Of a stretch of DNA of 41,078 nt, positions 5,200 through 40,944 are shown one piece after another. Position 1 is the first letter of the stretch. Every line of letters begins with the position of its first letter. A model generated the notes under the pieces. It worked only from the letters and a program-made list of their open reading frames with translations. It searched no databases and was not told the origin of the DNA. Source of the stretch: Candidatus Eiseniibacteriota bacterium (GTDB taxonomy: Bacteria > Arandabacterota > Arandabacteria > Arandabacterales > Arandabacteraceae); the NCBI GenBank assembly GCA_043810925.1, contig JBDRNT010000038.1, positions 1 through 41,078 on the forward strand, written 5' to 3'. The position numbers and the translations under genes are program-made.

Positions 5200-6318
5200 A
5201 TGAAGAAGAGTATGTGTGTCTGCTTAAGTTTACTGGTAGTGTTCGCGGCATCGGGTCTGTTTGCGGGTCCCAAGGTGGAGTTCGGGGACGATTCATATCT
5301 CCAGTTTAGTTTTCTCGGCCAGTTCCACGGCCGGTTCGTTGACCAGGAGGACGCTCTCGAAAACGATGACATCTTCATGAAGCGGGGGAGATTCATCGTG
5401 GCGGGTCAGATAGCGGACGGCATCAAGGTCTTCGTGGAGACGGATAACGCCAACGCCGGCATGATCGGATCCAGTTCATCCACGGTGATCCAGGACGCGT
5501 TTATCGACCTGGGTATCGGTGGGTCCGGCCACTGGGTAATGGCGGGTCTTATCCTGCTTCCGTTCTCATTTGAAAACGGCTCGTCAGCTGCAAGCCTGCT
5601 GGGCATCGACTATAACTCCGAAGCAGTGAAGTTCACCAACCACTTCGTGTGGAGAGACTACGGGGCGATGCTGCACGGTTCTATCGCCAACAAGTTTGCC
5701 TACAGCGTAGGTGTTTTTGACGGATATGATAACGTCAGTACTTCCGTCACCCGGACGGATGTCACAACGGTGACTACGGTCAAGGGGAAGAACCCCGAGG
5801 CCGGCGCACGCCTGACGGGCCACGTACACTATGCCCTTCTGGGTGCGGCCCAGTCCGGCTGGTTCTACGCCCAGGACAGGCTTGGAAAGGCCGGGGATTA
5901 TGTTCTCGTTGGGGCGGGTCTCGACATGCAGACGGACGCGACCTTTGAGTCCGTGGTGACCGTTGGAGACGGCACAACGCTCACGAGCACGACGATAATG
6001 GATTCAGAAAACTGGGTGGTTGACTGTCAGGCAGGCATGGATCTCGGCAGTGTGGACGGCGTGTTGAACGCCGGTTTCTATGAATGGGACAGCACGTACA
6101 AGGGCAACACGTTCTTCACTGAGGCTGGAGTGAGAAAGCGTAACGCTATGCTCACGCTTAAGTACTCCCAGCAGAGCCCGGACGAGGGAGACGACACAAC
6201 GGACTTCACGTACGGTCTTCACTACTTCCTTAAAGGGCACTCAACCGTGGCGGGTATCGAATACCGGACTGGGGATTCCATCTCACAAGCACTGTGTGCA
6301 ATCAAGTTCCTGCTGTAG
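5200..6318 (+). CDS. secreted beta-rich protein, phosphate-selective porin O/P-like (putative outer-membrane porin)
   Basis: Signal peptide MKKSMCVCLSLLVVFAASGLFA. The FMKRGRFIVAGQ...VIQDAFIDLG...LPFSFEN pattern resembles the porin O/P family. Confidence 0.5.
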   Translation: MKKSMCVCLSLLVVFAASGLFAGPKVEFGDDSYLQFSFLGQFHGRFVDQEDALENDDIFMKRGRFIVAGQIADGIKVFVETDNANAGMIGSSSSTVIQDAFIDLGIGGSGHWVMAGLILLPFSFENGSSAASLLGIDYNSEAVKFTNHFVWRDYGAMLHGSIANKFAYSVGVFDGYDNVSTSVTRTDVTTVTTVKGKNPEAGARLTGHVHYALLGAAQSGWFYAQDRLGKAGDYVLVGAGLDMQTDATFESVVTVGDGTTLTSTTIMDSENWVVDCQAGMDLGSVDGVLNAGFYEWDSTYKGNTFFTEAGVRKRNAMLTLKYSQQSPDEGDDTTDFTYGLHYFLKGHSTVAGIEYRTGDSISQALCAIKFLL

Positions 6319-29820: not shown

Positions 29821-30158
29821 CCCTCAAACACATTGAGTGGCAACCAGCCGTACCGGCCATCGGGTTTGCGGCACCAGGCCCAACCGTTTTGTGTCTTAAG
29901 CACCTCTACCTCGTCGCCCGCCTCCACGGTCAGCTCGGTTGCGTCATAATCAACGAGTAGCGCTCCGGTATCGCCGCTACGTTCGACGTAGAGGCCGGGT
30001 ATCCATCCGGCGTTTCCGTTGCTATCGCTACACCACAACCATCCCGGCCATTCGCTCTTCTTATCGGCCACCTTGACTTCATCGCCGGCCCTGAGTCGGA
30101 GCGGGTCAGGATATGCCGACTGATAGACTGAGCTTGCTTTGCGCGTCTTGCTAGTCAC
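29817..30158 (-). CDS. tandem bacterial SH3-like domain protein
   Basis: Two W(L/A)WC...G..GW(I/L)P...V(E/F) SH3-like units. The start is uncertain: either GTG 30158, which overlaps the upstream stop by 8 nt, or TTG 30212. Confidence 0.45.
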   Translation of the reverse strand: MTSKTRKASSVYQSAYPDPLRLRAGDEVKVADKKSEWPGWLWCSDSNGNAGWIPGLYVERSGDTGALLVDYDATELTVEAGDEVEVLKTQNGWAWCRKPDGRYGWLPLNVFEG

Positions 30159-30837
30159 CCTTCTCTTCCGGTTCCTTGACCTGGGTCTTAGGGTAACCGA
30201 CGGTCTGGGCAAGGATTACCTTCTTATCCTCGCCGAGTCCCATTGTCTTTGCCAGAGCTTCCTTATCCACGTACCCCCGGACAACAGTTGCGAGACCCTC
30301 CGAAGCACAGAAGAGATAAACGTTCTGGCTGATGAAACCCGTGTCGCATCCCGAATAGAAGTCCTGCATGTCCCCGGGTATCCGGGTCATCTTCGAGTAG
30401 TCGGCCACGTATACGAGGTTGACGGGAGCATCCTTGACAAATGGCTGTGGCCCCGTGTCGGCACGGATGTCGGCTTCAAGGACCGGGTTGAGTGTGTGGT
30501 CTTCTGCGTCGTAGACATAGAGTCCCTGTCTTAAGGCCACGTAGATATCGATCTCCTGCATGTTCATCGCCGACGGCGCCGTGCGCTTTCCGGTTTCGGC
30601 GCGGTTGATGCCGAACACCGCCCAGAGCATGTCGGACATCACCTGCATGGGAAGTTCTTCAGGGCCGTATTCACGCTGGGTCTGTCTTTCCTTCAGTGCC
30701 TCCATGAGGGGTTTCCCGCCCTCCGTCCTGGGCTCGGGCAGTTTGATCGACGTGAAACCCTCTCCGTAGGTCAGTACCGAAGCAGTGAGGATCAAAGCCA
30801 GCATCAGCCCCGCAACTCTAACCAGTCTTGTCTTCAT
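30151..30837 (-). CDS. nitroreductase-family protein (SagB-type dehydrogenase domain), signal-peptide-bearing
   Basis: PLMEALKERQTQREY...MLWAVFGINRAETGKRTAPSAMN...LYVYDAEDHTL is the SagB/ThcOx-like pattern. N-terminal signal peptide. Confidence 0.7.
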   Translation of the reverse strand: MKTRLVRVAGLMLALILTASVLTYGEGFTSIKLPEPRTEGGKPLMEALKERQTQREYGPEELPMQVMSDMLWAVFGINRAETGKRTAPSAMNMQEIDIYVALRQGLYVYDAEDHTLNPVLEADIRADTGPQPFVKDAPVNLVYVADYSKMTRIPGDMQDFYSGCDTGFISQNVYLFCASEGLATVVRGYVDKEALAKTMGLGEDKKVILAQTVGYPKTQVKEPEEKGD

Positions 30838-30899
30838 AGTGTTCCTCCATTCTTTACTGTGACCGCCACCTTTAGTATCTTACTCTATAGGGGAATGTG

Positions 30900-33107
30900 A
30901 TGAAACCTATTTACCTCGACTACAACGCGACCACGCCGATCGACCGGCGTGTGGCAGATGCGATGTTGCCCTTTATCACCGAACACTTCGGCAACCCTTC
31001 GAGCGGTCACGCCTACGGCGTCGCTACGAGAAAGGCTGTAGAGAAGGCCCGCGGGCAGGTGGCGGGTTTCCTGGGGTGTGAGGTATATGAAGTGGTCTTC
31101 ACAAGCGGCGGTTCAGAGAGCAACAACCACGCGATAAAGGGAGCGGTCCTCGCATATGCCGACAAGGGCAACCACATCATCACCTCAGCGGTTGAACACC
31201 CGGCCGTGATCGAAGTCTGCAGGTATCTGGAAAAGCACCACGCATGTGACGTCACCTATCTTCCCGTTGACGCACATGGTCTGGTGGACCCCAAAGAGGT
31301 TGAAGCTGCGATCACGCCGCGCACTCTGCTAATCACAATCATGCATGCCAATAACGAGGTGGGCACGGTTGAGCCCATAAAGGAAATTGCCTCGATCGCC
31401 CGCGCTCATGATGTTTTCCTCCACACGGATTGTGCGCAGTCTGCGGGGAAGATACCCGTTGACGTGGACGAACTTGGTGTCGACCTGCTTTCGTTGGCGG
31501 GTCACAAGATTTATGCGCCGAAGGGCGTTGGTGCACTTTATGTACGCAGCGGCGTCCGCCTTGAAAAACTGATCCACGGGGCAGCACAGGAGATGAAATG
31601 GCGGGCCGGTACCGAGAATGTGATCGAGATAGTCGGCCTCGGTGAGGCCTGCGACTTGATTGCCGGCGACCTCGACGAACACAGTGACCGGATGAAGCAG
31701 ATGCGTGATCGGCTTGAGAAGGGAATCAAGGACAGGTTTCCGGACATCAGGATCAACGGGCATCCGGAGAAGCGTTTGCCCAATACTCTGAGTGTGAGTT
31801 TCAGGGGGCTTGAGGCCAACACCATTCTCTCGGAACTCTCCGGTGTGGCCGCTTCTGCGGGAGCGGCCTGCCATAGTGACCGGGTGGAGATCTCAGATGT
31901 GCTTGCCGCGATGCGGGTGCCGATGGACTATGCGATGGGGACCATCCGGTTCTCGGTGGGCCGCTTCACGACACCCGACGAAATAGACCGGGCGATTGAG
32001 GAGATCACGAAGGTTGTGGGAGGAATGGCCCGCGGAGAAGCCCTCATCTCAGCCGAGCCGGTCACCGGGAAGGTGAAGCTGACTCAATTTACACACGGGC
32101 TTGGGTGTGCGTGCAAACTCCGGCCACAGGTTCTTGAAAAGATCCTGGCAAAGATACCGGTTTCACATGATGAGAATGTGCTGGTGGGGACGGACACTTC
32201 CGACGATGCGGCCGTCTACCGGATCGATAAGAAGACCGCGATTGTACAGACGGTTGATTTCTTCACGCCGGTCGTCGACGATCCGTTTCAGTTCGGTGCG
32301 ATCGCGGCGGCAAATTCACTTAGCGATATCTATGCGATGGGTGCGAAGCCCCTTTTCGCTTTGAGTGTTGTCGGGTTTCCGAGTAACCGGCTTCCGGTTG
32401 AAGTGCTGGAAGAGATCTTGAGCGGGGCACGATCAAAAGCCGGTGAGGCGGGAATAGACATTATCGGCGGTCACACCGTGGATGACACCGAGCCCAAGTT
32501 CGGTCTGGCGGTCAGCGGTGTCGTCGATCCCGAAAGGATCGTGACCAATCGAGCTGCCAGACCCGGTGACGTCCTCGTTCTGACCAAACCGATTGGGACG
32601 GGCATACTTGCCACGGGTCTCAAACAGGGGCTGCTGGATGCCTGCCAGATCGACACGCTTGTGGAGACCATGGCGACCTTGAACATGCGTGCCGCCGAAG
32701 CGATGCTGGATGTTGGCGTCAACGCCTGCACGGATGTCACCGGTTTCGGCCTCCTGGGGCACCTGCTGGAGATGATGACCGGTTCGGGTACTGCGGCTGT
32801 GTTAGAGGTAAGCAACGTCCGGTTTCTGCCGGGCGCCGTGGAACTCGTCACGTCCGGCGTCATCCCGGGTGGAACGCGCAACAATATGGAGTATACGGCC
32901 CCGTCGGTGAAGTATGCAGACGGGGTCCCCGAGATCAAGCGCGTGCTCTTAAACGACGCCCAGACCTCGGGTGGGCTTCTGATATCGCTCCCGGCCAAAC
33001 AGGTTGAGGCCTTGATGGATCGGCTCCGCGAAAAGGGTGTGGAAGGGGCAAGTGTGGTGGGCAGGGTTGTTACGGGAGGCGGCCCGAAGATCACGGTCGA
33101 AAGGTAG
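30900..33107 (+). CDS. selD: fusion protein: cysteine desulfurase/selenocysteine lyase (NifS-like) joined to selenophosphate synthetase (SelD)
   Basis: Residues 1-~385 carry SLAGHKIYAPKG (PLP Lys) and SAGAACHSD (active-site Cys). From about residue 395 the sequence KVKLTQFTHGLGCACKLRPQVLEKIL...VLVGTDTSDDAAVYRI matches the E. coli SelD N-terminus ([20 protein letters not shown]). There is no stop between the two domains. Ribosome-binding site AGGGGA. Confidence 0.85.
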   Translation: MKPIYLDYNATTPIDRRVADAMLPFITEHFGNPSSGHAYGVATRKAVEKARGQVAGFLGCEVYEVVFTSGGSESNNHAIKGAVLAYADKGNHIITSAVEHPAVIEVCRYLEKHHACDVTYLPVDAHGLVDPKEVEAAITPRTLLITIMHANNEVGTVEPIKEIASIARAHDVFLHTDCAQSAGKIPVDVDELGVDLLSLAGHKIYAPKGVGALYVRSGVRLEKLIHGAAQEMKWRAGTENVIEIVGLGEACDLIAGDLDEHSDRMKQMRDRLEKGIKDRFPDIRINGHPEKRLPNTLSVSFRGLEANTILSELSGVAASAGAACHSDRVEISDVLAAMRVPMDYAMGTIRFSVGRFTTPDEIDRAIEEITKVVGGMARGEALISAEPVTGKVKLTQFTHGLGCACKLRPQVLEKILAKIPVSHDENVLVGTDTSDDAAVYRIDKKTAIVQTVDFFTPVVDDPFQFGAIAAANSLSDIYAMGAKPLFALSVVGFPSNRLPVEVLEEILSGARSKAGEAGIDIIGGHTVDDTEPKFGLAVSGVVDPERIVTNRAARPGDVLVLTKPIGTGILATGLKQGLLDACQIDTLVETMATLNMRAAEAMLDVGVNACTDVTGFGLLGHLLEMMTGSGTAAVLEVSNVRFLPGAVELVTSGVIPGGTRNNMEYTAPSVKYADGVPEIKRVLLNDAQTSGGLLISLPAKQVEALMDRLREKGVEGASVVGRVVTGGGPKITVER

Positions 33108-33173
33108 CGTGAACCCCGGTCAAACCGTAGAGATCCGGGGCAGGGTCTCGAGGTCAGAATTCCAGGATTTGCT

Positions 33174-33203
33174 TGATTCTTTTGACCCACAAATGGCATC
33201 GTA
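33174..33203 (+). promoter_or_regulatory. candidate promoter for rubrerythrin
   Basis: TTGACC (33174-33179), 18-nt spacer, then TATAAG (33198-33203). Confidence 0.25.
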
Positions 33204-33259
33204 AGTATAAGAGTTTTCATTCGAGTATTGGTCGTTTAGAGAAGGGAGAGTGATTTCAC

Positions 33260-33754
33260 GTGCCATCAGCAGAGGATCATCTGAAAGACGCATTTGCAGG
33301 CGAGTCACAGGCAAATCGTAAATACCTGGCGTATGCCGAGAAGGCGGACCGCGATGGACAGCCCCAGGCTGCCAGGCTCTTTAGAGCTGCCGCGGCGGCT
33401 GAAACCGTGCATGCCCACAACCACCTGCGAGCACTTAAGGCGATAGGAAGCACCGAAGCCAATCTCAAGGACGCGATCGCGGGTGAGACTCATGAATTCA
33501 AGAGTATGTACCCCGAGATGATCGAGCAGGCCAAGGCCGAAGGCCACAAGGACGCGGAAAGGTCTTTTCACTTCGCTCTTGAAGTAGAGAAGATCCACGG
33601 CGCACTCTACCAGAATATGCTCGACAATCTTGGCTCTGTGGGTGACTTCCCCTACTATGTATGCCCCGTCTGCGGCTTTACTGCCGAGCGAGGTGCGCCT
33701 GATACGTGCCCCGTATGTGGAACCAAGGGCACTATGTTTAAGAAGGTCGAGTGA
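33260..33754 (+). CDS. rbr: rubrerythrin
   Basis: Diiron ferritin-like EAxxH motifs (AAETVHAHNH, ALEVEKIHGALY) plus a C-terminal rubredoxin-like CPVCG...CPVCG. GTG start after AAGGGAGAG. Confidence 0.9.
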   Translation: MPSAEDHLKDAFAGESQANRKYLAYAEKADRDGQPQAARLFRAAAAAETVHAHNHLRALKAIGSTEANLKDAIAGETHEFKSMYPEMIEQAKAEGHKDAERSFHFALEVEKIHGALYQNMLDNLGSVGDFPYYVCPVCGFTAERGAPDTCPVCGTKGTMFKKVE

Positions 33755-33798
33755 CGGTTGCGGGGCTCGGCCCTGTGACAAGAAAGGGATAGGCCGGA

Positions 33799-34293
33799 AT
33801 GGATGCCGAGGGCCGGGACCGCGTGATTCAAGACGAGGTCGTCGTGGAGGCCGGTCTTGATGCCGTCTGGGACGCGTGGACCACCAGTGAGGGTATTAAG
33901 TCGTTTTTCGCGCCGGCATGTAGCATCGATCTCCGGGTGGATGGTGCCTATGAGATGCTGTTCGATCCGGGCGCTGAGCCGGGGAGCCGTGGCGGCGAGG
34001 GTGTGCGGATACTCGCGATCGAGCCGAAGACGATGCTCTCGTTTACCTGGAACGCCCCGCCTCATCTTGCGAATGTGCGAAAACAGTGGACCCACGTGGT
34101 TATCCGGCTTGAGGCTGCGGGTGCGGGCCGGACCAGGGTGAGGATGATCCATGACGGCTGGGGAGAGGGCGAGGAGTGGGATCAGGCATTTGAGTACTTC
34201 ACACGGGCGTGGAAGCAGATGGTGCTGCCACGCCTCAGGTATAGATTCTCCACAGGTCCTGTTGACTGGGAGAACCCGCCCAGGTTCGAGTAG
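33799..34293 (+). CDS. SRPBCC (AHSA1/polyketide-cyclase-like) domain protein
   Basis: About 160 aa with the pattern EAGLDAVWDAWTTSEGIKSFF...KTMLSFTW... Confidence 0.6.
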   Translation: MDAEGRDRVIQDEVVVEAGLDAVWDAWTTSEGIKSFFAPACSIDLRVDGAYEMLFDPGAEPGSRGGEGVRILAIEPKTMLSFTWNAPPHLANVRKQWTHVVIRLEAAGAGRTRVRMIHDGWGEGEEWDQAFEYFTRAWKQMVLPRLRYRFSTGPVDWENPPRFE

Positions 34294-34307
34294 GAGGCAC
34301 TTCACAG

Positions 34308-34898
34308 ATGTTTCACAATATGCCGAAGCAGATTCTCAAACGGATGCAGTATCTCGAGCGTCTGGATGCCCGCCACAGGAAACAGGATATCTCCCACCTT
34401 AAACGGCTTCGCCAGATACCACCCGCGACGGGCAAGTTCCTTGCCCTGGTGGCGGCGAGTGCCCCGGATGGGACCTATCTTGAGATTGGGACGAGCGCGG
34501 GGTATTCCACGCTCTGGCTTACCCTTGCATGCCGGGAAGTGGGGAGGAAGATAACAACGTTCGAGGTGCTCGAAGAGAAAGCCTCGCTGGCGATGGAGAC
34601 TTTCAAGCAGGCGGGTGTTGAAGCCATTGTCGATCTCGTGACAGGTGATGCGCGTCAGCACCTTGCTGGTTACAAGGATGTCGCATTCTGCTTTCTCGAT
34701 GCCGAGAAGAAGTACTACAACGAATGCTTTCAAGCCGTGGTCCCCAACATGGTTCCCGGCGGGATCCTCGTCGCCGATAACGTGATCACCCACCAGGAGA
34801 TTCTCAAGGGTATGGTGGCGAAGGCCCTCAAGGATAAACGCGTCGATTCGATGATCGTCCCCATAGGATCGGGCCTACTCATGTGCCGGAAATTCTGA
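34308..34898 (+). CDS. class I SAM-dependent O-methyltransferase (family 3, caffeoyl-CoA OMT-like)
   Basis: LEIGTSAGYSTLWLTLA (SAM-binding motif I), FCFLDAEKKYY and GGILVADNV. Confidence 0.75.
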   Translation: MFHNMPKQILKRMQYLERLDARHRKQDISHLKRLRQIPPATGKFLALVAASAPDGTYLEIGTSAGYSTLWLTLACREVGRKITTFEVLEEKASLAMETFKQAGVEAIVDLVTGDARQHLAGYKDVAFCFLDAEKKYYNECFQAVVPNMVPGGILVADNVITHQEILKGMVAKALKDKRVDSMIVPIGSGLLMCRKF

Positions 34899-35050
34899 CG
34901 GGGGATCCAGCCATTTTGCGAACCTGCTCACATATGGCACTATCCCACACAAAGCCAACTTTCCCGTTGCAAGTCGGCCCGAAAAATGGTAACATTAATG
35001 GTAACTATTAAGTAAGCAGTGGATCATTTTGCTTCGGAAGGAGGCAGCCT

Positions 35051-36184
35051 ATGCGTATAGGCATCATTATGGGTCTGGCGGCGCTACTGCTCCTGGCCCT
35101 ACCCGTTCTGGCAGTACAGCGTGCGGTCCTCATCGAGGACTTCACGAACTCTGGGTGACCTGGCTGTGACGCCATCAAAGATGAGATGAACGTTATCTTT
35201 GATGAGTATCCGGGGCAGGTTGTCCCGATTCGAATTCACACCTGGTGGCCAAGTTCTGTCGATCAGTTCTTTGTTTTCGCGTACCCGGAAGACTCCCTGC
35301 GGGTAAGGTTCTACGGCGGGCTTACTCCGTGGACTGCGTATTACTACACACCCAGTTTCCGGTTTGACGGCAAGTATGTCTCGGACCCATCGGATAGTAC
35401 AAGTACTGGGGGCGATATGTGGCCGACGTATGCTTCCTGGTACGCCCGGACCCGAGAGGTAATCGACAGTCTTCTCACCGTTCCGAGTCCGCTGAGGATA
35501 AGCGTCACACGGAATTGCTTCAGTCCTGACAGTGATTCAGTCTACGTGGATTTCGATGTTGTCGCCGAGGATGACGCCGACTACAATCAGAATCTGTATC
35601 TCGCGGTGACCGAGTGGAGGCATCGATATACTTTCCCGACCGGAACGCACGATCACGCCCTGAGAGACTATGTTCCGGATCAGGACGGTATGGCAATAGG
35701 CCCGATGCTTTCCGGTGACTCACTCCACTTCGAGTGGGACTACATCGTCTACCCGGAGTACTGGCATGCAGCGAGTGGTACCTCACGCGTGAATACCAAC
35801 CTCTTCGTCCAGCGAGCGGGTACGAGAAAGGTCCAGCAAGCGTGGACCGGACATCCGGGAGAGTTTGAAGACCCGGTTTCCGGTGTCGCCATTCCCCGTT
35901 TGGCAGACGCGATCTGGCTGGGCAAGAACTCGCCTAATCCATTCAGCGAGCAGACGAGTATAGCGTACAACGTCAGGCGTGCCGGACATGTTCGTCTGTC
36001 GGTCTATACGCTTGAAGGAAGGCTTGTGGCTGATCTCGTCGACGGCCAGGTTGACCCCGGCTCTTATGCAGCTGATTGGGATGGTCGAGACCGCTTCGGA
36101 CACGAAGTCGGAAGCGGGGTCTATTATTTCAGTCTGAAGCAAGACAAGTCTGCCCAAACAGGTAAGATGATCGTACTTCGCTAG
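35051..36184 (+). CDS. candidate selenoprotein: exported thioredoxin-fold protein (U-P-G-C) with T9SS-type C-terminal domain; in-frame TGA at 35156-35158 read as Sec
   Basis: ATG 35051 is preceded by GGAAGGAGG. It encodes signal peptide MRIGIIMGLAALLLLALPVLA and runs to TGA in the same frame as the 35186 ORF. The context EDFTNSG-U-PGCDAIKDEMNVIFDEYPGQ is thioredoxin-like. The C-terminus LGKNSPNPF...WDGRDRFGHEVGSGVYYFSL...MIVLR is a T9SS CTD. Confidence 0.5.
35173..35204 (+). promoter_or_regulatory. stem-loop 14 nt downstream of the in-frame UGA (candidate bacterial SECIS)
   Basis: Perfect 10-bp inverted repeat CATCAAAGAT (35173-35182) / ATCTTTGATG (35195-35204). It extends by a G-U and an A-U pair to give an 8-nt apical loop GAUGAACG. 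Confidence 0.4.
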
Positions 36185-36230: not shown

Positions 36231-36367
36231 ACCTTGCGGAACGGGCCCGGTACGGCTTAGGACAGGGACAGGCATTTAGGTGGTTGGCGTGGACGCCACA
36301 AGGTCTTATACTTAGGGTAATGGGTAGATTGGAAGACACAGTGAAAGCAAGACTCTTACCTGCGCAT

Positions 36368-36886
36368 ATGGCCGCCATGGGCTTTGTCGTATTGCTCATG
36401 GTTGCGGCCGCGGTCTCGCCGTTAAGAGCGGGACCGGCCCCCGACTTCACGCTTCCCAACATCGATGGAAAGGATGTCACGCTTTCCGAGGCGTTGTCGG
36501 AGGGTCCGGTGATCATCGACTTCTGGGCGACATGGTGTAAGCCCTGCATCAAAGGGTTCCCGAGTCTCCAGGGGATTTATGACAAGTACCGCGAGCGTGG
36601 ACTCAGGGTGTTTGCAATCTCTGTTGACAGTCCCCGGTCGCGGGCGCGTGTAGGTCCGCTGATTCGATCGAAGAAGTACACCTTCGAAGTTCTTCTGGAC
36701 ACGCAGGGCCGCGTCGCCAAGAAGTATAACGCGGTCGCACTTCCACGGACGGTGCTCCTTAATACTGACGGCGAGATCGTGCTTGCGACGGTGGGTTACC
36801 GGCCGTCAAATCATGAAAAGCTCGAAGAAGCACTGCTGCCAATCCTGCAAGCCAAGGCCGGCGAGGATACCAAAGGTGCCGACTGA
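36368..36886 (+). CDS. TlpA/ResA-like thiol:disulfide oxidoreductase (thioredoxin fold, WCKPC), membrane-anchored or exported
   Basis: VIIDFWATWCKPCIKGFPSLQGIYDKY and VFAISVDS motifs. N-terminal hydrophobic anchor MAAMGFVVLLMVAAAV. The start is uncertain: GTG 36341 and TTG 36284 are alternatives. Confidence 0.8.
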   Translation: MAAMGFVVLLMVAAAVSPLRAGPAPDFTLPNIDGKDVTLSEALSEGPVIIDFWATWCKPCIKGFPSLQGIYDKYRERGLRVFAISVDSPRSRARVGPLIRSKKYTFEVLLDTQGRVAKKYNAVALPRTVLLNTDGEIVLATVGYRPSNHEKLEEALLPILQAKAGEDTKGAD

Positions 36887-38360
36887 TCGTTTTCTCCCCA
36901 CGGTATGTCTGGTCATTGTTATAGCGGCGGTATCTGTCGTATGGACCAGTCCGGTTGGTGCCCTTGAGACGGGTGCGAGGGGCGCAGTATCAGGTGAAGG
37001 TCTCCTCAACACCGATGAGGGGGCGAGAGTTGTCGATGCGAGAGTCGACTTCGATATAGATGTAGACTTCCTGACCTTCGGAGGGGCCTACCGGTTCTAT
37101 GATTTCGGAAACAAGAACTACAACCCTGCGGGCATAGATGCCGTCGATCATCTGAAGCACCGGTACTTAGCGGGCGAGATCCGCGGCCTCTTCTTCAGGG
37201 CGGGTCACTTCTTCTCGACCTTCGGCAGGGGACTCACGCTGAGGAGTTTCGAAGATCCCGGTCTTGAACACGATACATCACTCGACGGCATCATAGCGGA
37301 GTACGAGACCGGACCCGTGAGAGTCACCGGGCTTACCGGTATGATAACCGAGCGGCTGACGGGCCTGCAATCCCGGGAGCACAATGTGCGGGGTGGAAGA
37401 GCCCGGGCCGGTGTCGGTGACATACTTGCTGTTGCGGTAAGCGGTCTCGACCGGAGCACAAAGAGACGAGATGAACAGGTAGTTTTGCCCGATAGTCTTA
37501 CGAGCTTCAGCGACAACGTGATTGGGGCCGAAGTCGAGGTCTGGCATGGGCCGCTGTCGCTGGTCGGTGAATATGCCCGAAGAGACGGTGACTACTATCA
37601 CGGACTCGAGCAAGACGGTGAAGGCGGCAGCGCAACATATCTCTCCGGGAGTCTGGCTACGAACCTGCTCACGCTGCTTGGGGAATACAAGGACTATGAC
37701 AGGTTTGAAAATACACTGGTGAATCCCCCCATCTGTGTCAAGGAACACGTGTGGATTTTGATGAACAGGGTGACGCACCAGGTCAGCTTTGATAACGAAA
37801 GAGGGTTTCTGCTTGAGGGCACGCTTTCTGCGAGCGAGAACGTACAGCTTACCGGTGGAGCCTCTGAAGCTCGGACCCAGGGAGGCAGTCTCGGACACTG
37901 GGAGATCTTCGGCCAGGTCGATCAGCCGCTTCCGGGTTGGGGGATCAGATCGTTTGCCGGATCGTGGTCGAGGGAATACCTGTACGGCAAGTTCACCGAA
38001 AACATCAGTTGTGGGCTCGATCTCGAGATTTCATTGCCCTCCCAACACGTGGTGGAGGTGGGGATCGAGGCACAGACAATAAAGGAGCCTTCACTGGACT
38101 CGCATGAGAATTACATGGCATCGGCTGCGCTTTATCCCTGGCCGAGCGTGACGCTTGCCGCCACTGGAGAGCTGACCACCGAGGAAGGGCTCGAACGCGA
38201 CAAGTGGCTCTTCGGTGAGGCCAGGGTATCGGTAGGGGGAGATTTCGAGGTATCTCTTGGTGCCGGGAGCGAACGTGGCGGTAAGAAGTGTAGCGGTGGC
38301 ATTTGCTACACGGAACCTGAGTTCGCAGGCGTTAGACTGCGCTTCTCGGCCTTCTTCTAG
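36876..38360 (+). CDS. putative outer-membrane beta-barrel protein
   Basis: Signal-like N-terminus FLPTVCLVIVIAAVSVVW. Alternating beta-strand pattern. The C-terminus ends ...VRLRFSAFF with an aromatic final residue. A GTG start at 36876 after GAGGA overlaps the TlpA-like stop, which suggests translational coupling. Confidence 0.5.
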   Translation: MPTDRFLPTVCLVIVIAAVSVVWTSPVGALETGARGAVSGEGLLNTDEGARVVDARVDFDIDVDFLTFGGAYRFYDFGNKNYNPAGIDAVDHLKHRYLAGEIRGLFFRAGHFFSTFGRGLTLRSFEDPGLEHDTSLDGIIAEYETGPVRVTGLTGMITERLTGLQSREHNVRGGRARAGVGDILAVAVSGLDRSTKRRDEQVVLPDSLTSFSDNVIGAEVEVWHGPLSLVGEYARRDGDYYHGLEQDGEGGSATYLSGSLATNLLTLLGEYKDYDRFENTLVNPPICVKEHVWILMNRVTHQVSFDNERGFLLEGTLSASENVQLTGGASEARTQGGSLGHWEIFGQVDQPLPGWGIRSFAGSWSREYLYGKFTENISCGLDLEISLPSQHVVEVGIEAQTIKEPSLDSHENYMASAALYPWPSVTLAATGELTTEEGLERDKWLFGEARVSVGGDFEVSLGAGSERGGKKCSGGICYTEPEFAGVRLRFSAFF

Positions 38361-38428
38361 GGGCCCGGAATAATGGCGGCTACCGGATGGAGTTTGATGC
38401 ATCGTAATGAAAGAGGGATAGAAGGGTG

Positions 38429-39481
38429 ATGAAAGTACTCAGATTGGTGCTGGTTGCGGCGGTTTGCATTCCTGCCGCGTGTGACTGGTTCGAGGAGCCG
38501 GTCGAGGCCAATCTACACCCGGAAACGAGATTCCTTGCATGCGCCTCCGGCTTGGAGGTGTTTGAGGGTGATGACGTGAGGTTTGAGTGGGTGGGTAGTG
38601 ACGTGGACGGCACGGTAAACCGTTATGAGTGCGCTTACGATGGCTCACCATGGACATCCACTGCCGGGCTGGATACCATCATCTCAGATGTAACACTGGG
38701 CGAACACACCTTGCGGGTGAGATCTGTTGACGACCACGGGGATGTGGATCCCACACCGGCTGAATGCAGTTTCACTGTGACTGAACCCGGAAGCTCTGTC
38801 GATAGAGTCGTCCATCTGGAGCTCTTCACCGCGACCTGGTGCAGGTTCTGCCCCAAGGCGGAAATCGCCCTGAATAGCCTGCTTGATGAGTATGGTCCGG
38901 ACAGGCTCAGCGTTATCGCTTTCCACGGTACGCCGGACCGGGATCCGTTTGCCACTGAAGAAACAGAGGCACGAATCATCTGGCATTTCAGCGATCCCAG
39001 CTTCCCGGGCGATCGAGACGTAATCCCGACGGTTGTCATCGACGGGCTGAGATATGTGCAAGGGGCGGCCACGGCCGAAGAGGCTGAGGCCTACTACCGG
39101 GCGGAGATCGAGTTGCGTATGGCACTCGGATCGCCGCTTTCGATCAGGACGGTGGGAGAGATAGGGTCGAGCACAGGATTGGTGAGCGCCGTGGTAAAGG
39201 TCGAGGATCATCTTGAGGAGGGTGATCGCCTGGTCCGCTTTGCAGTGATAGAGGATGACATATTCTACATAGGTCCATACTCGCTTGAGTATGACTTCGT
39301 TTCGCGGGATCTGCCCGCCGATGAGCCCTTTGACCTTGTTGTGGTCGGGGACTCGATGACGGTCGAGAGGCAATTCTCGGTGGACGGATCATGGAACCCT
39401 GAGCACATGGATGTGATTGTATTTGTGCAAGATATGACCACGAGAGAGGTCTTGCAGTCAGCCAGGCTGCGGCGTGAATGA
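38429..39481 (+). CDS. exported Ig-like plus thioredoxin-like (WCRFC) domain protein; Cys-paralog of the 35051-36184 candidate selenoprotein
   Basis: Signal peptide. LELFTATWCRFCPKAEIALNSLLDEYGPDRLSVIAFH aligns with LIEDFTNSGUPGCDAIKDEMNVIFDEYPGQVVPIRIHT. Downstream, SPLSIRTV in this protein matches SPLRISV in the other. Confidence 0.7.
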   Translation: MKVLRLVLVAAVCIPAACDWFEEPVEANLHPETRFLACASGLEVFEGDDVRFEWVGSDVDGTVNRYECAYDGSPWTSTAGLDTIISDVTLGEHTLRVRSVDDHGDVDPTPAECSFTVTEPGSSVDRVVHLELFTATWCRFCPKAEIALNSLLDEYGPDRLSVIAFHGTPDRDPFATEETEARIIWHFSDPSFPGDRDVIPTVVIDGLRYVQGAATAEEAEAYYRAEIELRMALGSPLSIRTVGEIGSSTGLVSAVVKVEDHLEEGDRLVRFAVIEDDIFYIGPYSLEYDFVSRDLPADEPFDLVVVGDSMTVERQFSVDGSWNPEHMDVIVFVQDMTTREVLQSARLRRE

Positions 39482-39567: not shown

Positions 39568-40944
39568 ATGAGACTGGGAGATTCGGGACGGTCTGCAGTG
39601 ATTGCTGCCGGCGTGATGATCGCGCTGATGGCCGGAGCAGCTTCTGAAGCCTTAGCGGTGCGTGATATCGAGATGACCACCGTAGATTACGCGGGCACGA
39701 TGATCTACTGGTTTCCGGTAGTCTTCTACACGGCAATCGAGAACACGGGAACGGAAGGCAGCACGGTTGATCTTCATCTTGAGAAGAACCTGCCTGGTGG
39801 ATGGGCTTCGGACATGTGTATTGACGGCGACTGCATTCCAAATGATGGGTTCCTCTATCTGGCACCGGGAGAAGTGGAGACGGTGTTGGTAGATGTGACT
39901 GTGGGTGGTTCGCAGAATATGGGTCTTGAGACGATGACGGCGACGGTGCGCCAGGAGCCTTCGATAGTCAAGAGCCAGACCTACGCCGCATTTGCCCAGC
40001 TCCCGTCGTTTTTGCTCGTGGATGATGATAACGGTGCCGGCTACGAAACCTATTTGAAAACGGCCATCGAGGCTGCGGGCTACAAGGTGCGTGTCTGGGA
40101 TGCCGACTCACTCGGTAGACCGGGTCCGATACAGCTCCTGTCCTACTGGGGGGTGTTCTGGACAACGGCCGACGGTAATGCCGGTTACATAACCTCGGGT
40201 GACGAGCAGGACATGATGACATATCTTGATAGCGGTGGGAGACTCTTCCTGGCGAGCATGGACCTTCTGAGCAGCCGGGGCGGGGCCACGACTTTTACGA
40301 CCAACTACCTTCATGCCGCATCGTGGATGAATAACACCGGCGCTGCGACCGTATCGGGCATATCCGGTGACCCCATCTCCGACAGTATGGTACTTCCGCT
40401 TACCGCAGGACCGTTTTCGGCGGGTAACACCGACAACATGACCCTTAACTCACCGTCGGATTCGATTTTTGTGGGTGCAACCGGCATAAGCGGGCTCAAG
40501 GTGGAGGAGAGCGCCCACCAGCTCGTCTTCCTGTCCTATCCTTTTGAGGACGTAAGCACGAGCGCACCCGATCCTGATAACCAGGCGACTCTGATATCCC
40601 GTGTGATCGGCTGGTTCGATCCGCCGACAGCCGGGGTGGATAGCAAGCCCGATCTTCCCCAGGATGAACTTGTGCTCGGACAGAACAGTCCGAACCCGTT
40701 TAAGACCTCGACCGGGATCTCGTTCGCTGTTCCGAGGGGAAGCCGGCATACCGAGTTGGTGGTTTACGATGTCAAGGGGCGGGTGGTTAAGACGCTGATT
40801 AACGGTGCACCTTCGGCGGCAGGGAGCCGGATTGCATGGGATGGCAGAGATGATGCCGGAGCACCTGTCGCATCGGGCGTCTATTTCTATAAGATTACAG
40901 CCGACCGGGCCAGCGCCATAAAAAAGATGGTGATGCTGAGATAG
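39568..40944 (+). CDS. secreted protein with T9SS-type C-terminal sorting domain (function unknown)
   Basis: Signal peptide ...AASEALA. C-terminal LGQNSPNPFKTSTGISF...VVYDVKGR...WDGRDDAGAPVASGVYFYKI...MVMLR. Confidence 0.75.
   Translation: MRLGDSGRSAVIAAGVMIALMAGAASEALAVRDIEMTTVDYAGTMIYWFPVVFYTAIENTGTEGSTVDLHLEKNLPGGWASDMCIDGDCIPNDGFLYLAPGEVETVLVDVTVGGSQNMGLETMTATVRQEPSIVKSQTYAAFAQLPSFLLVDDDNGAGYETYLKTAIEAAGYKVRVWDADSLGRPGPIQLLSYWGVFWTTADGNAGYITSGDEQDMMTYLDSGGRLFLASMDLLSSRGGATTFTTNYLHAASWMNNTGAATVSGISGDPISDSMVLPLTAGPFSAGNTDNMTLNSPSDSIFVGATGISGLKVEESAHQLVFLSYPFEDVSTSAPDPDNQATLISRVIGWFDPPTAGVDSKPDLPQDELVLGQNSPNPFKTSTGISFAVPRGSRHTELVVYDVKGRVVKTLINGAPSAAGSRIAWDGRDDAGAPVASGVYFYKITADRASAIKKMVMLR

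What the first reader, a model, noticed from the sequence alone, without database searches (positions are those of the whole stretch)
30900..33107. NifS-type cysteine desulfurase fused to selenophosphate synthetase SelD in one polypeptide
The two halves are joined without a stop codon:
- The N-terminal ~385 aa carry the PLP-Lys motif (SLAGHKIY) and the active-site Cys (SAGAACHSD) of NifS/IscS/CsdB-type desulfurases.
- The C-terminal ~345 aa start with the diagnostic SelD N-terminus HGLGCACKLRPQVLEKIL, where the catalytic residue is Cys rather than Sec.

It is established biochemistry that NifS-like selenocysteine lyases can deliver selenium to SelD, so a covalent fusion would channel Se directly. 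The fusion also marks this organism as a selenium utiliser, which supports the selenoprotein call about 2 kb downstream.
Basis: partly seen in the sequence, partly recalled or inferred. Interest (0 to 1): 0.75.

Follow-up and report, generated by a model that had tools for sequence, protein, structure and literature searches.

The report
Known NifS–SelD selenium-activating fusion enzyme
One real 735-residue gene joins a cysteine-desulfurase/selenocysteine-lyase-type enzyme to selenophosphate synthetase, most likely passing selenium directly from one half to the other; this fusion type has been in the literature since 2008 and is common in uncultured bacteria, so this is a correctly read but ordinary member of it.

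Summary
Window 30900..33107 (+) is one uninterrupted ORF whose N-terminal half is a group-I NifS/IscS-like PLP enzyme (Pfam Aminotran_5, 6.8e-82). Its C-terminal half is a full-length SelD: TIGR00476 scores 393 bits against a cutoff of 125, and it aligns end to end with E. coli SelD. The catalytic residue is Cys, not Sec.

It is not an assembly artefact. More than 120 independent protein clusters and 80 of 80 species genomes from at least eight phyla keep the same 730-755-aa ORF.

In other genomes the fusion occupies the selD slot. One has tRNA-Sec, selA, selB, then the fusion; about 20 have selU directly upstream; two have yedF, selD, selU, then the fusion. The TGA-containing gene 2 kb downstream in the window has Cys-containing full-length homologues, so the organism very probably makes selenoproteins.

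The architecture is already published (Zhang 2008; Mariotti 2015: Geobacter FRC-32, Caldithrix abyssi, two protists), including the idea of internal selenium hand-over.

Modest additions here:
- The fusion is far more widespread than reported.
- The desulfurase Cys loop (SAGAACHS) copies the mammalian selenocysteine-lyase loop rather than the IscS/NifS consensus.
- All three published Se/S-specificity positions differ from IscS-type enzymes.

Channelling itself remains untested.

The parts
30900..33107 (+). Complete nifS-like/selD fusion gene (735 aa from the ATG; the GTG at 30897 is an alternative start; stop TAG 33105-33107)
   Evidence: Identical to NCBI protein P0001. An SD-like AGGGGA lies at 30889-30894.
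30909..32024 (+). Group-I NifS/IscS-like PLP-dependent desulfurase / selenocysteine-lyase domain (aa 5-376)
   Evidence: Pfam Aminotran_5, 6.8e-82. Aligns with residues 2-380 of E. coli IscS 1P3W and with human NFS1. TIGR03402 NifS scores 482.8 bits, below its cutoff of 530.75.
31197..31202 (+). His101-Pro102: the PLP-stacking His, followed by the position equivalent to hSCL Asp146 / IscS-type Lys
   Evidence: Alignment to NFS1 (EH-K against EH-P). Pro is invariant in 78/78 fusions. Position defined in PMC3266270.
31497..31508 (+). Ala201-Gly-His-Lys204: the PLP-binding lysine, with Ala at the hSCL Val256 / IscS Ser position
   Evidence: K204 and A201 are invariant in 78/78.
31857..31880 (+). 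Mobile catalytic loop SAGAACHS, with the persulfide/perselenide-carrying Cys325 and His326
   Evidence: Invariant SAGAACH(S/A/T) in all relatives. The only PDB matches to the loop peptide are human and rat selenocysteine lyase. AF2 confidence is low here.
32025..32069 (+). Inter-domain linker (aa 377-391)
   Evidence: This is the least conserved stretch (0.42-0.50 mean column identity). The Cys325-to-Cys404 spacing is held at 78-84 aa in all but one sequence (one regex outlier at 60). AF2 pLDDT is below 50.
32070..33098 (+). Full-length SelD (selenide, water dikinase) domain (aa 392-734)
   Evidence: TIGR00476, 392.8 bits (cutoff 125). 285 bits to residues 5-344 of E. coli SelD 3U0O. Pfam AIRS and AIRS_C.
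32097..32117 (+). SelD N-terminal glycine-rich catalytic loop GLGCACK: Cys404 (= E. coli Cys17, the Sec/Cys position) and Lys407 (= Lys20)
   Evidence: Alignment. G(L/M)GCACK occurs in 76 of 78 relatives (one GGGCACK and one spurious regex match make up the rest), always with Cys. AF2 confidence is low at 404-409.
35051..36184 (+). Context, not part of the enzyme: a secreted Omp28-like/T9SS-tailed selenoprotein candidate with an in-frame TGA at 35156-35158 (FTNSG-U-PGC), a likely consumer of the selenophosphate pathway
   Evidence: 12-bp hairpin 17 nt after the UGA. (362-aa homologues have Cys at the aligned position; the closest homologues are annotated as truncated after it).

Best explanation
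The gene encodes a bifunctional selenium-activating enzyme.

- The N-terminal group-I NifS-like PLP domain removes selenium from free L-selenocysteine (and perhaps sulfur from cysteine). This gives alanine and an enzyme-bound Cys325-S-Se(-) on its mobile loop.
- The loop hands the selenium to Cys404 in the flexible glycine-rich N-terminal loop of the covalently attached SelD domain. Because both parent enzymes are homodimers, the hand-over may be within one chain or across a dimer.
- The SelD domain then uses ATP to make selenophosphate, AMP and Pi.
- Selenophosphate feeds SelA (Sec-tRNA, hence selenoproteins such as the one 2 kb downstream) and, in many relatives, SelU (2-selenouridine in tRNA).

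Shown here:
- Both domains are present and intact, and every catalytic residue is invariant.
- The fusion is conserved across phyla.
- It sits in sel operons.

Inferred:
- That selenocysteine is the preferred substrate.
- That selenium passes loop to loop without release.
For: Domain identity:
-.
- SelD residues equivalent to E. coli Cys17, Lys20, Asp51, Asp68, Asn87, Asp91 and Asp227 are all present and invariant.
- PLP-Lys204, His101 and Cys325 are invariant. In total 146 residues spread over both halves are invariant in 78 sequences.

The fusion is real and selected:
- More than 120 clusters at 66-87% identity are all about 734 aa.
- 80/80 species genomes are intact.
- 17 of 18 fused SelD domains fall in one NJ clade.

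Selenium context in relatives:
- L011 has tRNA-Sec, then selA (552 bits) and selB (362 bits), with the fusion starting 3 nt after selB.
- selB is adjacent in L005.
- selU/MnmH (380 bits, cutoff 241) lies directly upstream in 19 of 80 loci and within three genes in 22. Of those 22, 17 lie within 40 nt of the fusion or overlap it.
- L027 and L045 have yedF-selD-selU-fusion clusters.

The window has a Sec/Cys-paired TGA gene 2 kb downstream.

Hints of selenium specialisation:
- The loop ASAGAACHSD matches human SCL ASVGAACHSDH, and no other PDB protein.
- The three specificity positions of PMC3266270 read P/A/H here, against K/S/T in NFS1 and IscS-type enzymes and D/V/H in hSCL.

Structure: AF2 models both domains well and leaves the Cys loop, the linker and the SelD loop at low confidence, as expected for mobile relay elements.

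Established knowledge:
- E. coli NifS-like proteins supply Se from selenocysteine to SelD in vitro (Lacourciere 2000, cited).
- T. brucei SCLY binds SEPHS2 (PMC7595633).
Against: - No biochemical data exist for any NifS-SelD fusion in the literature I could search.
- The position that actually confers Sec specificity in human SCL (Asp146) is Pro here, so Sec specificity is not established. A Pro at this position is, from my memory of A. vinelandii NifS (not tested here), also found in ordinary NifS.
- Overall the domain is closer to IscS/NFS1 (about 350 bits) than to SCL (about 240 bits).
- The window itself has no selA, selB, selC or selU, so the pathway link in this organism rests on the downstream selenoprotein and on relatives.
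- AF2 gave no coordinates, so no Cys-Cys distance is known. Low pLDDT is not proof of mobility.
Confidence: 0.72

Rival explanations
1. Sub-functionalised recycling enzyme. The fused SelD is not the cell's general selenophosphate synthetase. It is a second, specialised copy that can only phosphorylate selenium delivered by its own NifS domain (salvage of selenocysteine from degraded selenoproteins), while a separate free SelD elsewhere in the genome handles selenide. This refines the main explanation rather than contradicting it.
For: - Mariotti et al. found a second SPS in every NifS-SPS host and proposed exactly this (Supplement S2).
- Here, three of 80 loci carry a free SelD within 10 kb of the fusion: L031 has a Sec-type copy with an in-frame TGA, and L027 and L045 have Cys-type copies in the same gene cluster.
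Against: - In L011 the fusion is the only selD in a selC-selA-selB-selD operon.
- About 20 genomes have selU then the fusion, with no other selD within 10 kb.
- All SelD catalytic residues are intact, so use of free selenide is not excluded.
- Whether the window's genome has a second selD cannot be told from 41 kb.
Confidence: 0.35
2. General cysteine desulfurase that merely happens to be fused. The N-terminal domain mobilises sulfur for Fe-S clusters or thio-cofactors, and the two activities are functionally independent.
For: - The best profile matches are NifS and IscS (483 and 416 bits).
- The best structural relatives by sequence are IscS and NFS1.
- Group-I enzymes generally accept both Cys and Sec (PMC3266270).
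Against: - Scores fall below the NifS and IscS equivalog cutoffs.
- The SSGSACTS consensus and the K/S/T positions of IscS-type enzymes are all replaced, invariantly.
- The domain ends at about IscS residue 380, so the IscS C-terminal tail is absent.
- No iscU, nifU, suf or second nifS-like gene lies near any of 81 loci.
- The recurrent neighbours are selenium genes.
- The inter-domain spacing is tightly constrained.
Confidence: 0.08
3. Assembly chimera or sequencing frameshift that artificially joins two adjacent genes.
For: None found. The window is from a metagenome-assembled genome.
Against: - The same single ORF occurs in more than 120 independent clusters from NCBI, JGI, ENA and Logan assemblies, including 3.8-4.3 Mb contigs.
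- It occurs in 80/80 species genomes.
- Base composition is even across the gene.
Confidence: 0.01
4. Selenium detoxification device. The enzyme scavenges free selenocysteine or selenide to prevent misincorporation and toxicity, and selenophosphate is a sink rather than a biosynthetic precursor.
For: - An N-terminal extension on a Naegleria SPS was reported to give partial selenium resistance (summarised).
- The window neighbours are redox proteins: nitroreductase, rubrerythrin and a TlpA-like protein.
Against: - The window neighbours are not conserved with the fusion.
- The conserved neighbours are biosynthetic: selA, selB, selU and yedF.
Confidence: 0.05

Closest known systems
NifS-SPS (NifS-SelD) fusion of Caldithrix abyssi, Cys form (Mariotti et al. 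2015, Genome Res, PMC4561486, Supplement S2)
   Same: - Same order of domains: NifS-like at the N-terminus, SelD at the C-terminus.
- Cys at the Sec/Cys position.
- The host uses selenocysteine.
- Calditrichota genomes in my scan carry orthologues 60-64% identical to the window protein (L004, L008, L010, L026).
   Different: The host phylum differs (Candidatus Eisenbacteria MAG). The published description is comparative only, with no residue-level or biochemical analysis.
NifS-SelD fusion of Geobacter sp. FRC-32, Sec form (Zhang et al. 2008, PLoS Genet, PMC2398784; Mariotti 2015)
   Same: Same two-domain architecture and the same presumed role in selenophosphate synthesis.
   Different: The Geobacter SelD domain has Sec in a CxxU motif. 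The window protein and all 80 relatives scanned have Cys in GLGCACK, with no Cys at position -3.
E. coli SelD working in trans with the NifS-like proteins CsdB/SufS, CSD and IscS (Lacourciere et al. 2000, J Biol Chem; cited in PMC4561486 and PMC3266270)
   Same: Same chemistry is proposed: a PLP enzyme takes Se from L-selenocysteine and SelD converts it to selenophosphate. The SelD half aligns end to end with E. coli SelD at 285 bits, with all catalytic residues kept.
   Different: In E. coli they are separate proteins and the donors are general desulfurases. Here the donor is covalently attached and has a distinctive SAGAACHS loop.
Eukaryotic selenocysteine lyase (SCLY) with SEPHS2 (human SCL 3GZC, rat 3A9X; the T. 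brucei SCLY-SEPHS2 complex, PMC7595633)
   Same: - Group-I NifS-like fold.
- A near-identical Cys loop: ASxGAACHSD.
- His after the catalytic Cys, as in hSCL H389.
- Physical partnership with the selenophosphate synthetase.
   Different: - The specificity-conferring Asp146 is Pro here, and Val256 is Ala.
- Overall similarity to SCL (about 240 bits) is lower than to IscS/NFS1 (about 350 bits).
- The eukaryotic partnership is non-covalent.
Ndh-SelD (NADH-dehydrogenase-like/SelD) fusion; NCBIfam TIGR04369 'oxidoreductase/SelD-related fusion'
   Same: An N-terminal extension on a Cys-type SelD; the commonest SelD fusion.
   Different: - The N-terminal domain is different.
- The window protein scores 158.9 bits against a cutoff of 700 for TIGR04369.
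- It lacks the CxxC motif typical of Ndh-SelD.
SclA, the group-II bacterial selenocysteine lyase of Enterococcus faecalis (bioRxiv 10.1101/2020.02.07.939272; NCBIfam NF040779)
   Same: A bacterial NifS-like enzyme dedicated to selenium and linked to selD.
   Different: SclA is group II (RxGxHCA loop) and free-standing. The window domain is group I and scores 129.8 bits against a cutoff of 525.

Membership tests
SelD / selenophosphate synthetase (selenide, water dikinase) | Full-length match to the curated SelD equivalog models, above cutoff | tested here: met
   TIGR00476 scores 392.8 bits (cutoff 125) and NF002098 scores 382.8 bits (cutoff 299), over aa 392-727. The half aligns with residues 5-344 of the 347-residue E. 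coli SelD.
SelD / selenophosphate synthetase (selenide, water dikinase) | Catalytic Cys or Sec in the N-terminal glycine-rich loop (E. coli Cys17) followed by Lys20 | tested here: met
   HGLGCACK aligns with HGAGCGCK, so Cys404 = Cys17 and Lys407 = Lys20. Both are invariant in relatives.
SelD / selenophosphate synthetase (selenide, water dikinase) | PurM-superfamily ATP/metal-binding acidic residues (E. coli Asp51, Asp68, Asn87, Asp91, Asp227) | tested here: met
   DDAAVY, TVDFF, AANSLSD and TDVTGFG are all aligned. D436/D437, D454, N473, D477 and D613 are invariant.
SelD / selenophosphate synthetase (selenide, water dikinase) | ATP-dependent formation of selenophosphate | not testable with these tools
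   Needs an enzyme assay or complementation of an E. coli selD mutant.
Group-I NifS/IscS-like cysteine desulfurases (class-V aminotransferase fold) | Aminotran_5 fold with a PLP-binding Lys and a PLP-stacking His | tested here: met
   PF00266, 6.8e-82. His101 and Lys204 align with NFS1 and IscS and are invariant.
Group-I NifS/IscS-like cysteine desulfurases (class-V aminotransferase fold) | Catalytic Cys on the long group-I mobile loop | tested here: met
   Cys325 aligns with the NFS1/IscS loop Cys with no gap.
Group-I NifS/IscS-like cysteine desulfurases (class-V aminotransferase fold) | Group-I consensus loop SSGSACTS | tested here: not met
   The loop is SAGAACHS, invariant as SAGAACH(S/A/T). 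The consensus is as quoted.
NifS proper (TIGR03402) / IscS (TIGR02006, NF010611) equivalogs | Score above the curated equivalog cutoff | tested here: not met
   NifS 482.8 bits (cutoff 530.75); IscS 416.3 (cutoff 548) and 410.8 (cutoff 643.2). The domain is NifS-like, not a NifS or IscS orthologue.
Sec-specific selenocysteine lyase of the eukaryotic type (hSCL) | Asp at hSCL position 146, the residue shown to confer Sec specificity | tested here: not met
   It is Pro102, mapped by the adjacent invariant His (H145 in hSCL). It is invariant in 78/78. The Lys of IscS-type enzymes is also absent.
Sec-specific selenocysteine lyase of the eukaryotic type (hSCL) | His immediately after the catalytic Cys (hSCL H389), and the GAACHSD loop | tested here: met
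   Cys325-His326. The loop peptide hits only human and rat SCL in the PDB, but the peptide is short (E = 0.6-0.85).
Sec-specific selenocysteine lyase of the eukaryotic type (hSCL) | Val at hSCL position 256, three residues before the PLP-Lys (Ser/Thr in non-specific enzymes) | tested here: inconclusive
   It is Ala201: not the Ser of desulfurases and not the Val of SCL. It is invariant.
Published NifS-SelD (NifS-SPS) fusion family | NifS-like domain at the N-terminus and a complete SelD at the C-terminus of one ORF | tested here: met
   Definition taken.
Published NifS-SelD (NifS-SPS) fusion family | The SelD domain groups with those of other NifS-fused SelDs (single origin) | tested here: met
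   17 of 18 fused representatives plus the window fall in one 23-leaf NJ clade. The tree is a rough distance tree with no bootstrap. Calditrichota orthologues are 60-64% identical.
Published NifS-SelD (NifS-SPS) fusion family | The host has Sec machinery and/or selenoproteins | tested here: inconclusive
   A well-supported selenoprotein gene lies at 35051-36184. No selA, selB, selC or selU lies in the 41-kb window, and the rest of the genome was not available.
SclA (group-II bacterial selenocysteine lyase, NF040779) | Score above cutoff; RxGxHCA loop | tested here: not met
   129.8 bits against a cutoff of 525. The loop is of the group-I type.

The most novel reading that the evidence does not exclude
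The N-terminal half is not a generic desulfurase. It would be a bacterial group-I, selenium-dedicated selenocysteine lyase, defined by an invariant Pro/Ala/His signature at the three published Se/S-discrimination positions and by a GAACHSD loop shared with mammalian SCLY. On this reading the fusion is a widespread, obligate selenium-channelling machine found in at least eight phyla. It would sometimes be the only SelD of a sel operon, and it might be evolutionarily related to the eukaryotic SCLY active-site loop.
Probability: 0.25. Interest if true: 0.55.

Novelty: new member of a known kind. Interest (0 to 1): 0.3.

Why it matters
How cells deliver reactive, toxic selenide to SelD while discriminating it from far more abundant sulfur is still not settled. 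A natural covalent donor-acceptor pair is a convenient model for that hand-over, and it is a reliable genomic marker of selenium use in uncultured phyla.

For this window, the practical value is in annotation:
- The public name, 'selenide, water dikinase SelD', omits the N-terminal enzyme.
- The gene corroborates that the TGA at 35156 encodes selenocysteine, so the annotated 332-aa 'FlgD Ig-like' ORF is a truncated selenoprotein.

The concept itself is already published, so the find does not change understanding. The wider distribution and the SCL-like loop are incremental.

Tried and rejected
- **Whole-window RNA scans.** tRNA and Rfam scans found nothing relevant: no tRNA-Sec and no annotated SECIS family.
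- **First regex pass.** My first pass over the 80 loci returned zero hits because I required [SG]GHK, and the family has AGHK. I redid it. The three apparent exceptions were regex misses for two loci (L049 and L060 have TDVSGFG). L019 has a full-length tblastn match (query residues 1-735), but its ORF was never inspected.
- **Sec (TGA) forms.** I looked for them among relatives. There were none among the 80 species or the 120 clusters.
- **Window neighbours as conserved partners.** I tested nitroreductase, rubrerythrin, AHSA1, O-methyltransferase and the Sec-protein/TlpA/DUF6029/Omp28-like cluster. They are not conserved partners: only the nitroreductase recurs, in L001, and a TlpA-like gene recurs in L011.
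- **Second NifS-like gene.** None was found near any fusion.
- **Promoter/terminator scan.** The scan of 30100-35200 gave counts at or below shuffle expectation and was uninformative.
- **Literature searches.** One search was wasted because the term 'scla' matched sclareol. Two later searches for post-2015 work on the fusion found nothing relevant.
- **Free-standing relatives of the NifS half.** I considered a homologue search with the NifS half alone, to find free-standing relatives with the P/A/H signature. I dropped it because the top 120 listed hits would all be fusions.
- **Fold search.** I did not run one on the AF2 model, because the sequence search already showed that no solved structure contains both halves.
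Full report

Yes. The ORF listing gives one ORF at 30897..33107 on the + strand, 736 aa from a GTG. The next codon, the ATG at 30900, follows an AGGGGA Shine-Dalgarno-like motif by 5 nt. It yields the 735-aa protein already in NCBI for this very contig, 'MAG: selenide, water dikinase SelD [Candidatus Eisenbacteria bacterium]' (P0001, 100% identity, contig length 41078).

Pfam finds three domains:
- Aminotran_5 at aa 5-365 (E = 6.8e-82).
- AIRS at aa 436-543 (9e-30).
- AIRS_C at aa 555-734 (5e-20).

NCBIfam places aa 392-727 in the SelD equivalogs, well above cutoff: TIGR00476 at 392.8 bits against 125, and NF002098 at 382.8 bits against 299. The N-terminal half is best matched by NifS (482.8 bits) and IscS (416 bits), but both fall below their equivalog cutoffs.

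Base composition is even across the region.

**2. Is it an artefact?**

No.
- A search of 5.8 billion proteins returned more than 120 separate 90%-identity clusters at 66-87% identity. Apart from one truncated 626-aa hit (P0053), all are about 732-775 aa. All carry PF00266 plus PF00586 plus PF02769, except truncated P0053, which lacks PF02769. They come from NCBI, JGI, ENA and Logan assemblies, including 3.8-4.3 Mb contigs.
- A scan of one genome per species returned 80 loci with full-length matches. Of these, 79 were confirmed to carry a single open frame of 730-755 aa. L019 has a full-length tblastn match, but its ORF was not inspected.
- The hosts span Latescibacterota, Calditrichota, Acidobacteriota, Chloroflexota (Anaerolineae), Bacteroidota (including MAGs assigned to Paludibacter propionicigenes and Draconibacterium orientale), Cloacimonadota, Planctomycetota and Krumholzibacteriota.
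- Across 78 aligned sequences, 146 residues spread over both halves are invariant. The least conserved stretch is the junction (aa 361-400, mean column identity 0.42-0.50). Even so, the spacing between the two catalytic cysteines is held at 78-84 residues in all but one sequence.

This is the signature of a true inter-domain linker under geometric constraint.

**3. Anatomy of the SelD half**

It aligns with residues 5-344 of E. coli SelD (3U0O) at 285 bits. SHGAGCGCK aligns with THGLGCACK, so Cys404 is the Cys17/Sec position and Lys407 is Lys20. The DDAAVY, TVDFF, NxxSD and TDVTGFG motifs are kept and are invariant in relatives. None of the 80 relatives has TGA at this position. The loop is G(L/M)GCACK in 76 of the 78 sequences parsed, always with Cys.

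**4. Anatomy of the NifS-like half**

It aligns with E. coli IscS residues 2-380 and with human NFS1. It is therefore a group-I enzyme lacking the last ~24 residues of IscS.

Its catalytic loop is not the group-I consensus SSGSACTS (quoted). It is SAGAACHS, invariant as SAGAACH(S/A/T). A 24-residue loop peptide searched against all PDB sequences hit only human and rat selenocysteine lyase: ASVGAACHSDH and ASVGASCHSDH, against ASAGAACHSDR here. The E-values are weak (0.6-0.85) because the peptide is short, but the match is nearly literal.

Collins et al. (PMC3266270) named three positions that separate Sec-specific SCLs from non-specific desulfurases:

| Position (hSCL) | Other group-I enzymes | hSCL | This fusion |
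|---|---|---|---|
| D146 | Lys | Asp | Pro102 |
| V256 | Ser/Thr | Val | Ala201 |
| H389 | Thr/Ala | His | His326 |

I mapped these by the adjacent invariant His, Lys and Cys anchors and by the NFS1 alignment, in which NFS1 shows K/S/T. All three fusion residues are invariant in 78/78.

So the domain has left the IscS state at all three positions and shares one of them with SCL. It lacks the Asp that was shown experimentally to confer Sec specificity. From memory, and not tested here, Pro after the His also occurs in Azotobacter NifS, so that position alone is not diagnostic.

Overall similarity is higher to IscS/NFS1 (about 350 bits) than to SCL (about 240 bits). The group-II bacterial lyase SclA is excluded (129.8 bits against a cutoff of 525).

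**5. Genomic context**

In the window, the neighbours are:
- a divergent nitroreductase/SagB-like gene (30151-30837, minus strand);
- rubrerythrin (33260-33754);
- an AHSA1/SRPBCC protein;
- an O-methyltransferase.

None of these is a conserved partner in the 80 loci. No selA, selB, selU or tRNA-Sec lies in the 41 kb.

In relatives the picture is clear:
- The commonest neighbour is tRNA 2-selenouridine synthase MnmH/SelU (NF008750, 380 bits, cutoff 241). It lies directly upstream on the same strand in 19 loci and within three genes in 22. Of those 22, 17 have gaps of -25 to +38 nt.
- L011 (Cloacimonadota) has tRNA-Sec, selA (TIGR00474, 552 bits) and selB (TIGR00475, 362 bits), with the fusion starting 3 nt after selB.
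- L005 (Acidobacteriota) has selB directly upstream.
- L027 and L045 (Lentimicrobiaceae) have yedF (TIGR03527, 197.5 bits), a free Cys-type selD (369 bits), selU and then the fusion.
- L031 (Krumholzibacteriota) has a free SelD about 6 kb away with an in-frame TGA at the catalytic position, SSCLG*ASKL.

The fusion therefore sits in the selD slot of both the selenocysteine and the selenouridine pathways, and sometimes sits next to a second selD.

**6. The downstream selenoprotein**

The ATG at 35051 opens a signal peptide followed by VLIEDFTNSG-TGA(35156)-PGCDAIKDEM. The frame then continues into the annotated 332-aa ORF, ending at 36184. A 12-bp hairpin begins 17 nt after the UGA.

A database search shows two classes of homologue:
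- 362-aa proteins that read FTNSG-C-PGC at exactly this place.
- Closer relatives (65-74% identity) annotated as truncated ORFs that start just after it.

That is the classic Sec/Cys pair. A Cys paralogue (FTATWCRFCPKAE) lies at 38426-39481 and weakly matches NCBIfam 'Omp28-related selenoprotein' (62 bits, below the cutoff of 200). The organism very probably decodes UGA as Sec and so needs selenophosphate.

**7. How it most likely works**

Shown:
- Both enzymes are intact and every catalytic residue is conserved.
- The fusion is conserved and linked to sel genes.

Established knowledge:
- NifS-like enzymes form a Cys-S-Se(-) adduct on a mobile loop, and can supply selenium from selenocysteine to SelD in vitro (Lacourciere 2000, as cited).
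- SelD's N-terminal Cys/Sec loop is the proposed selenium acceptor.
- Trypanosome SCLY binds SEPHS2 (PMC7595633).

Inference:
- Here the Cys325 loop hands selenium to Cys404 of the attached SelD, in cis or across a dimer.
- SelD then makes selenophosphate for SelA and SelU.

AlphaFold2 (45-sequence alignment; mean pLDDT 78.4; pTM 0.78) models both domains well. Besides residues 1-35 and 225-254, its low-confidence segments are 322-331 (the Cys loop), 378-389 (the linker) and 404-409 (the SelD loop), in 735-aa numbering. This is compatible with three mobile elements, but it is not proof.

**8. Comparison with what is known**

The architecture is published:
- Zhang et al. 2008 noted a NifS-SelD fusion in Geobacter sp. 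FRC-32 with a CxxU Sec motif.
- Mariotti et al. 2015 added Caldithrix abyssi (Cys form), Naegleria gruberi and Acanthamoeba castellanii. They inferred a single bacterial origin with transfer to protists. [quoted passage not shown]

My rough NJ tree of SelD domains agrees with a mainly single origin. It used the top 150 representatives at 50% identity, and 17 of 18 fused forms fall in one 23-leaf clade. It has no support values. The window protein is 60-64% identical to the Calditrichota orthologues and so belongs to the Caldithrix-type Cys family. I found no biochemical study of any such fusion.

**9. What is new here, modestly**

- (a) The family is far commoner than the two bacterial instances reported in 2015. 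It occurs in at least 80 species-level genomes and at least eight phyla.
- (b) It often forms a selU-fusion operon, and at least once it is the selD of a selC-selA-selB operon. This argues against it always being a mere second copy.
- (c) It has an invariant SCL-like loop and a P/A/H signature.

None of this changes the basic reading.

**10. Verdict**

- Observation: confirmed.
- Interpretation: supported, but channelling is unproven and the novelty was overstated.
- Novelty: a new member, in Candidatus Eisenbacteria, of a known fusion family.
- Interest: about 0.3.

Noticed in passing
window 35051-36184 (+), TGA at 35156-35158: A selenoprotein gene is mis-annotated as a 332-aa 'FlgD Ig-like' ORF. 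It has a signal peptide, FTNSG-U-PGC, and a T9SS-type C-terminal tail. A 12-bp hairpin starts 17 nt after the UGA. The 362-aa homologues have Cys at the aligned position, and the closest homologues are truncated in the same way.
   Followed up: partly
window 38426-39481 (+): A Cys-form paralogue (FTATWCRFCPKAE) weakly matches NCBIfam NF045500 'Omp28-related selenoprotein' (62 bits, cutoff 200). It lies in a run of secreted redox/T9SS genes: a TlpA-like gene at 36284-36886, DUF6029 at 36783-38360, and a T9SS-tail protein at 39568-40944.
   Followed up: partly
L011 6303-12202 (Cloacimonadota, CAYNOU010000002.1): A compact sel operon runs tRNA-Sec, selA, selB, then the NifS-SelD fusion. No other selD lies within 10 kb.
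   Followed up: yes
L027 2863-7920 and L045 3377-9229 (Lentimicrobiaceae): A selenium gene cluster runs yedF, free Cys-type selD, selU, then the NifS-SelD fusion. L045 has an extra 271-aa ORF of unknown family between selD and selU. These genomes therefore have two SelDs side by side.
   Followed up: partly
L031 17990-19021 (-) (Krumholzibacteriota): A free-standing SelD has an in-frame TGA at the catalytic position (SSCLG*ASKL, a CxxU-type Sec SelD). It lies about 6 kb from the Cys-type fusion.
   Followed up: partly
proteins P0228 and P0136 (representative search): Other SelD architectures turned up. P0228 (708 aa) is a SelU(rhodanese/P-loop)-SelD fusion. P0136 (534 aa) is a SelD with a C-terminal extension of about 140 aa. 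P0159 (737 aa) has an N-terminal region with no Pfam match.
   Followed up: no
representative search: Most of the nearest free-standing SelD representatives are about 320-330 aa and begin at query residue 23-42, just after the Sec/Cys codon. This suggests they are Sec-type SelDs truncated by gene callers.
   Followed up: no
window 5200-6318 (+): An outer-membrane-type ORF has a weak match to the ExtI 'selenite/tellurite reduction operon porin' (46.8 bits, cutoff 150).
   Followed up: no
window 36783-38360 versus 36284-36886: The mechanically called TTG start of the DUF6029 ORF overlaps the end of the TlpA-like gene by about 100 nt. The true start is probably further downstream.
   Followed up: no
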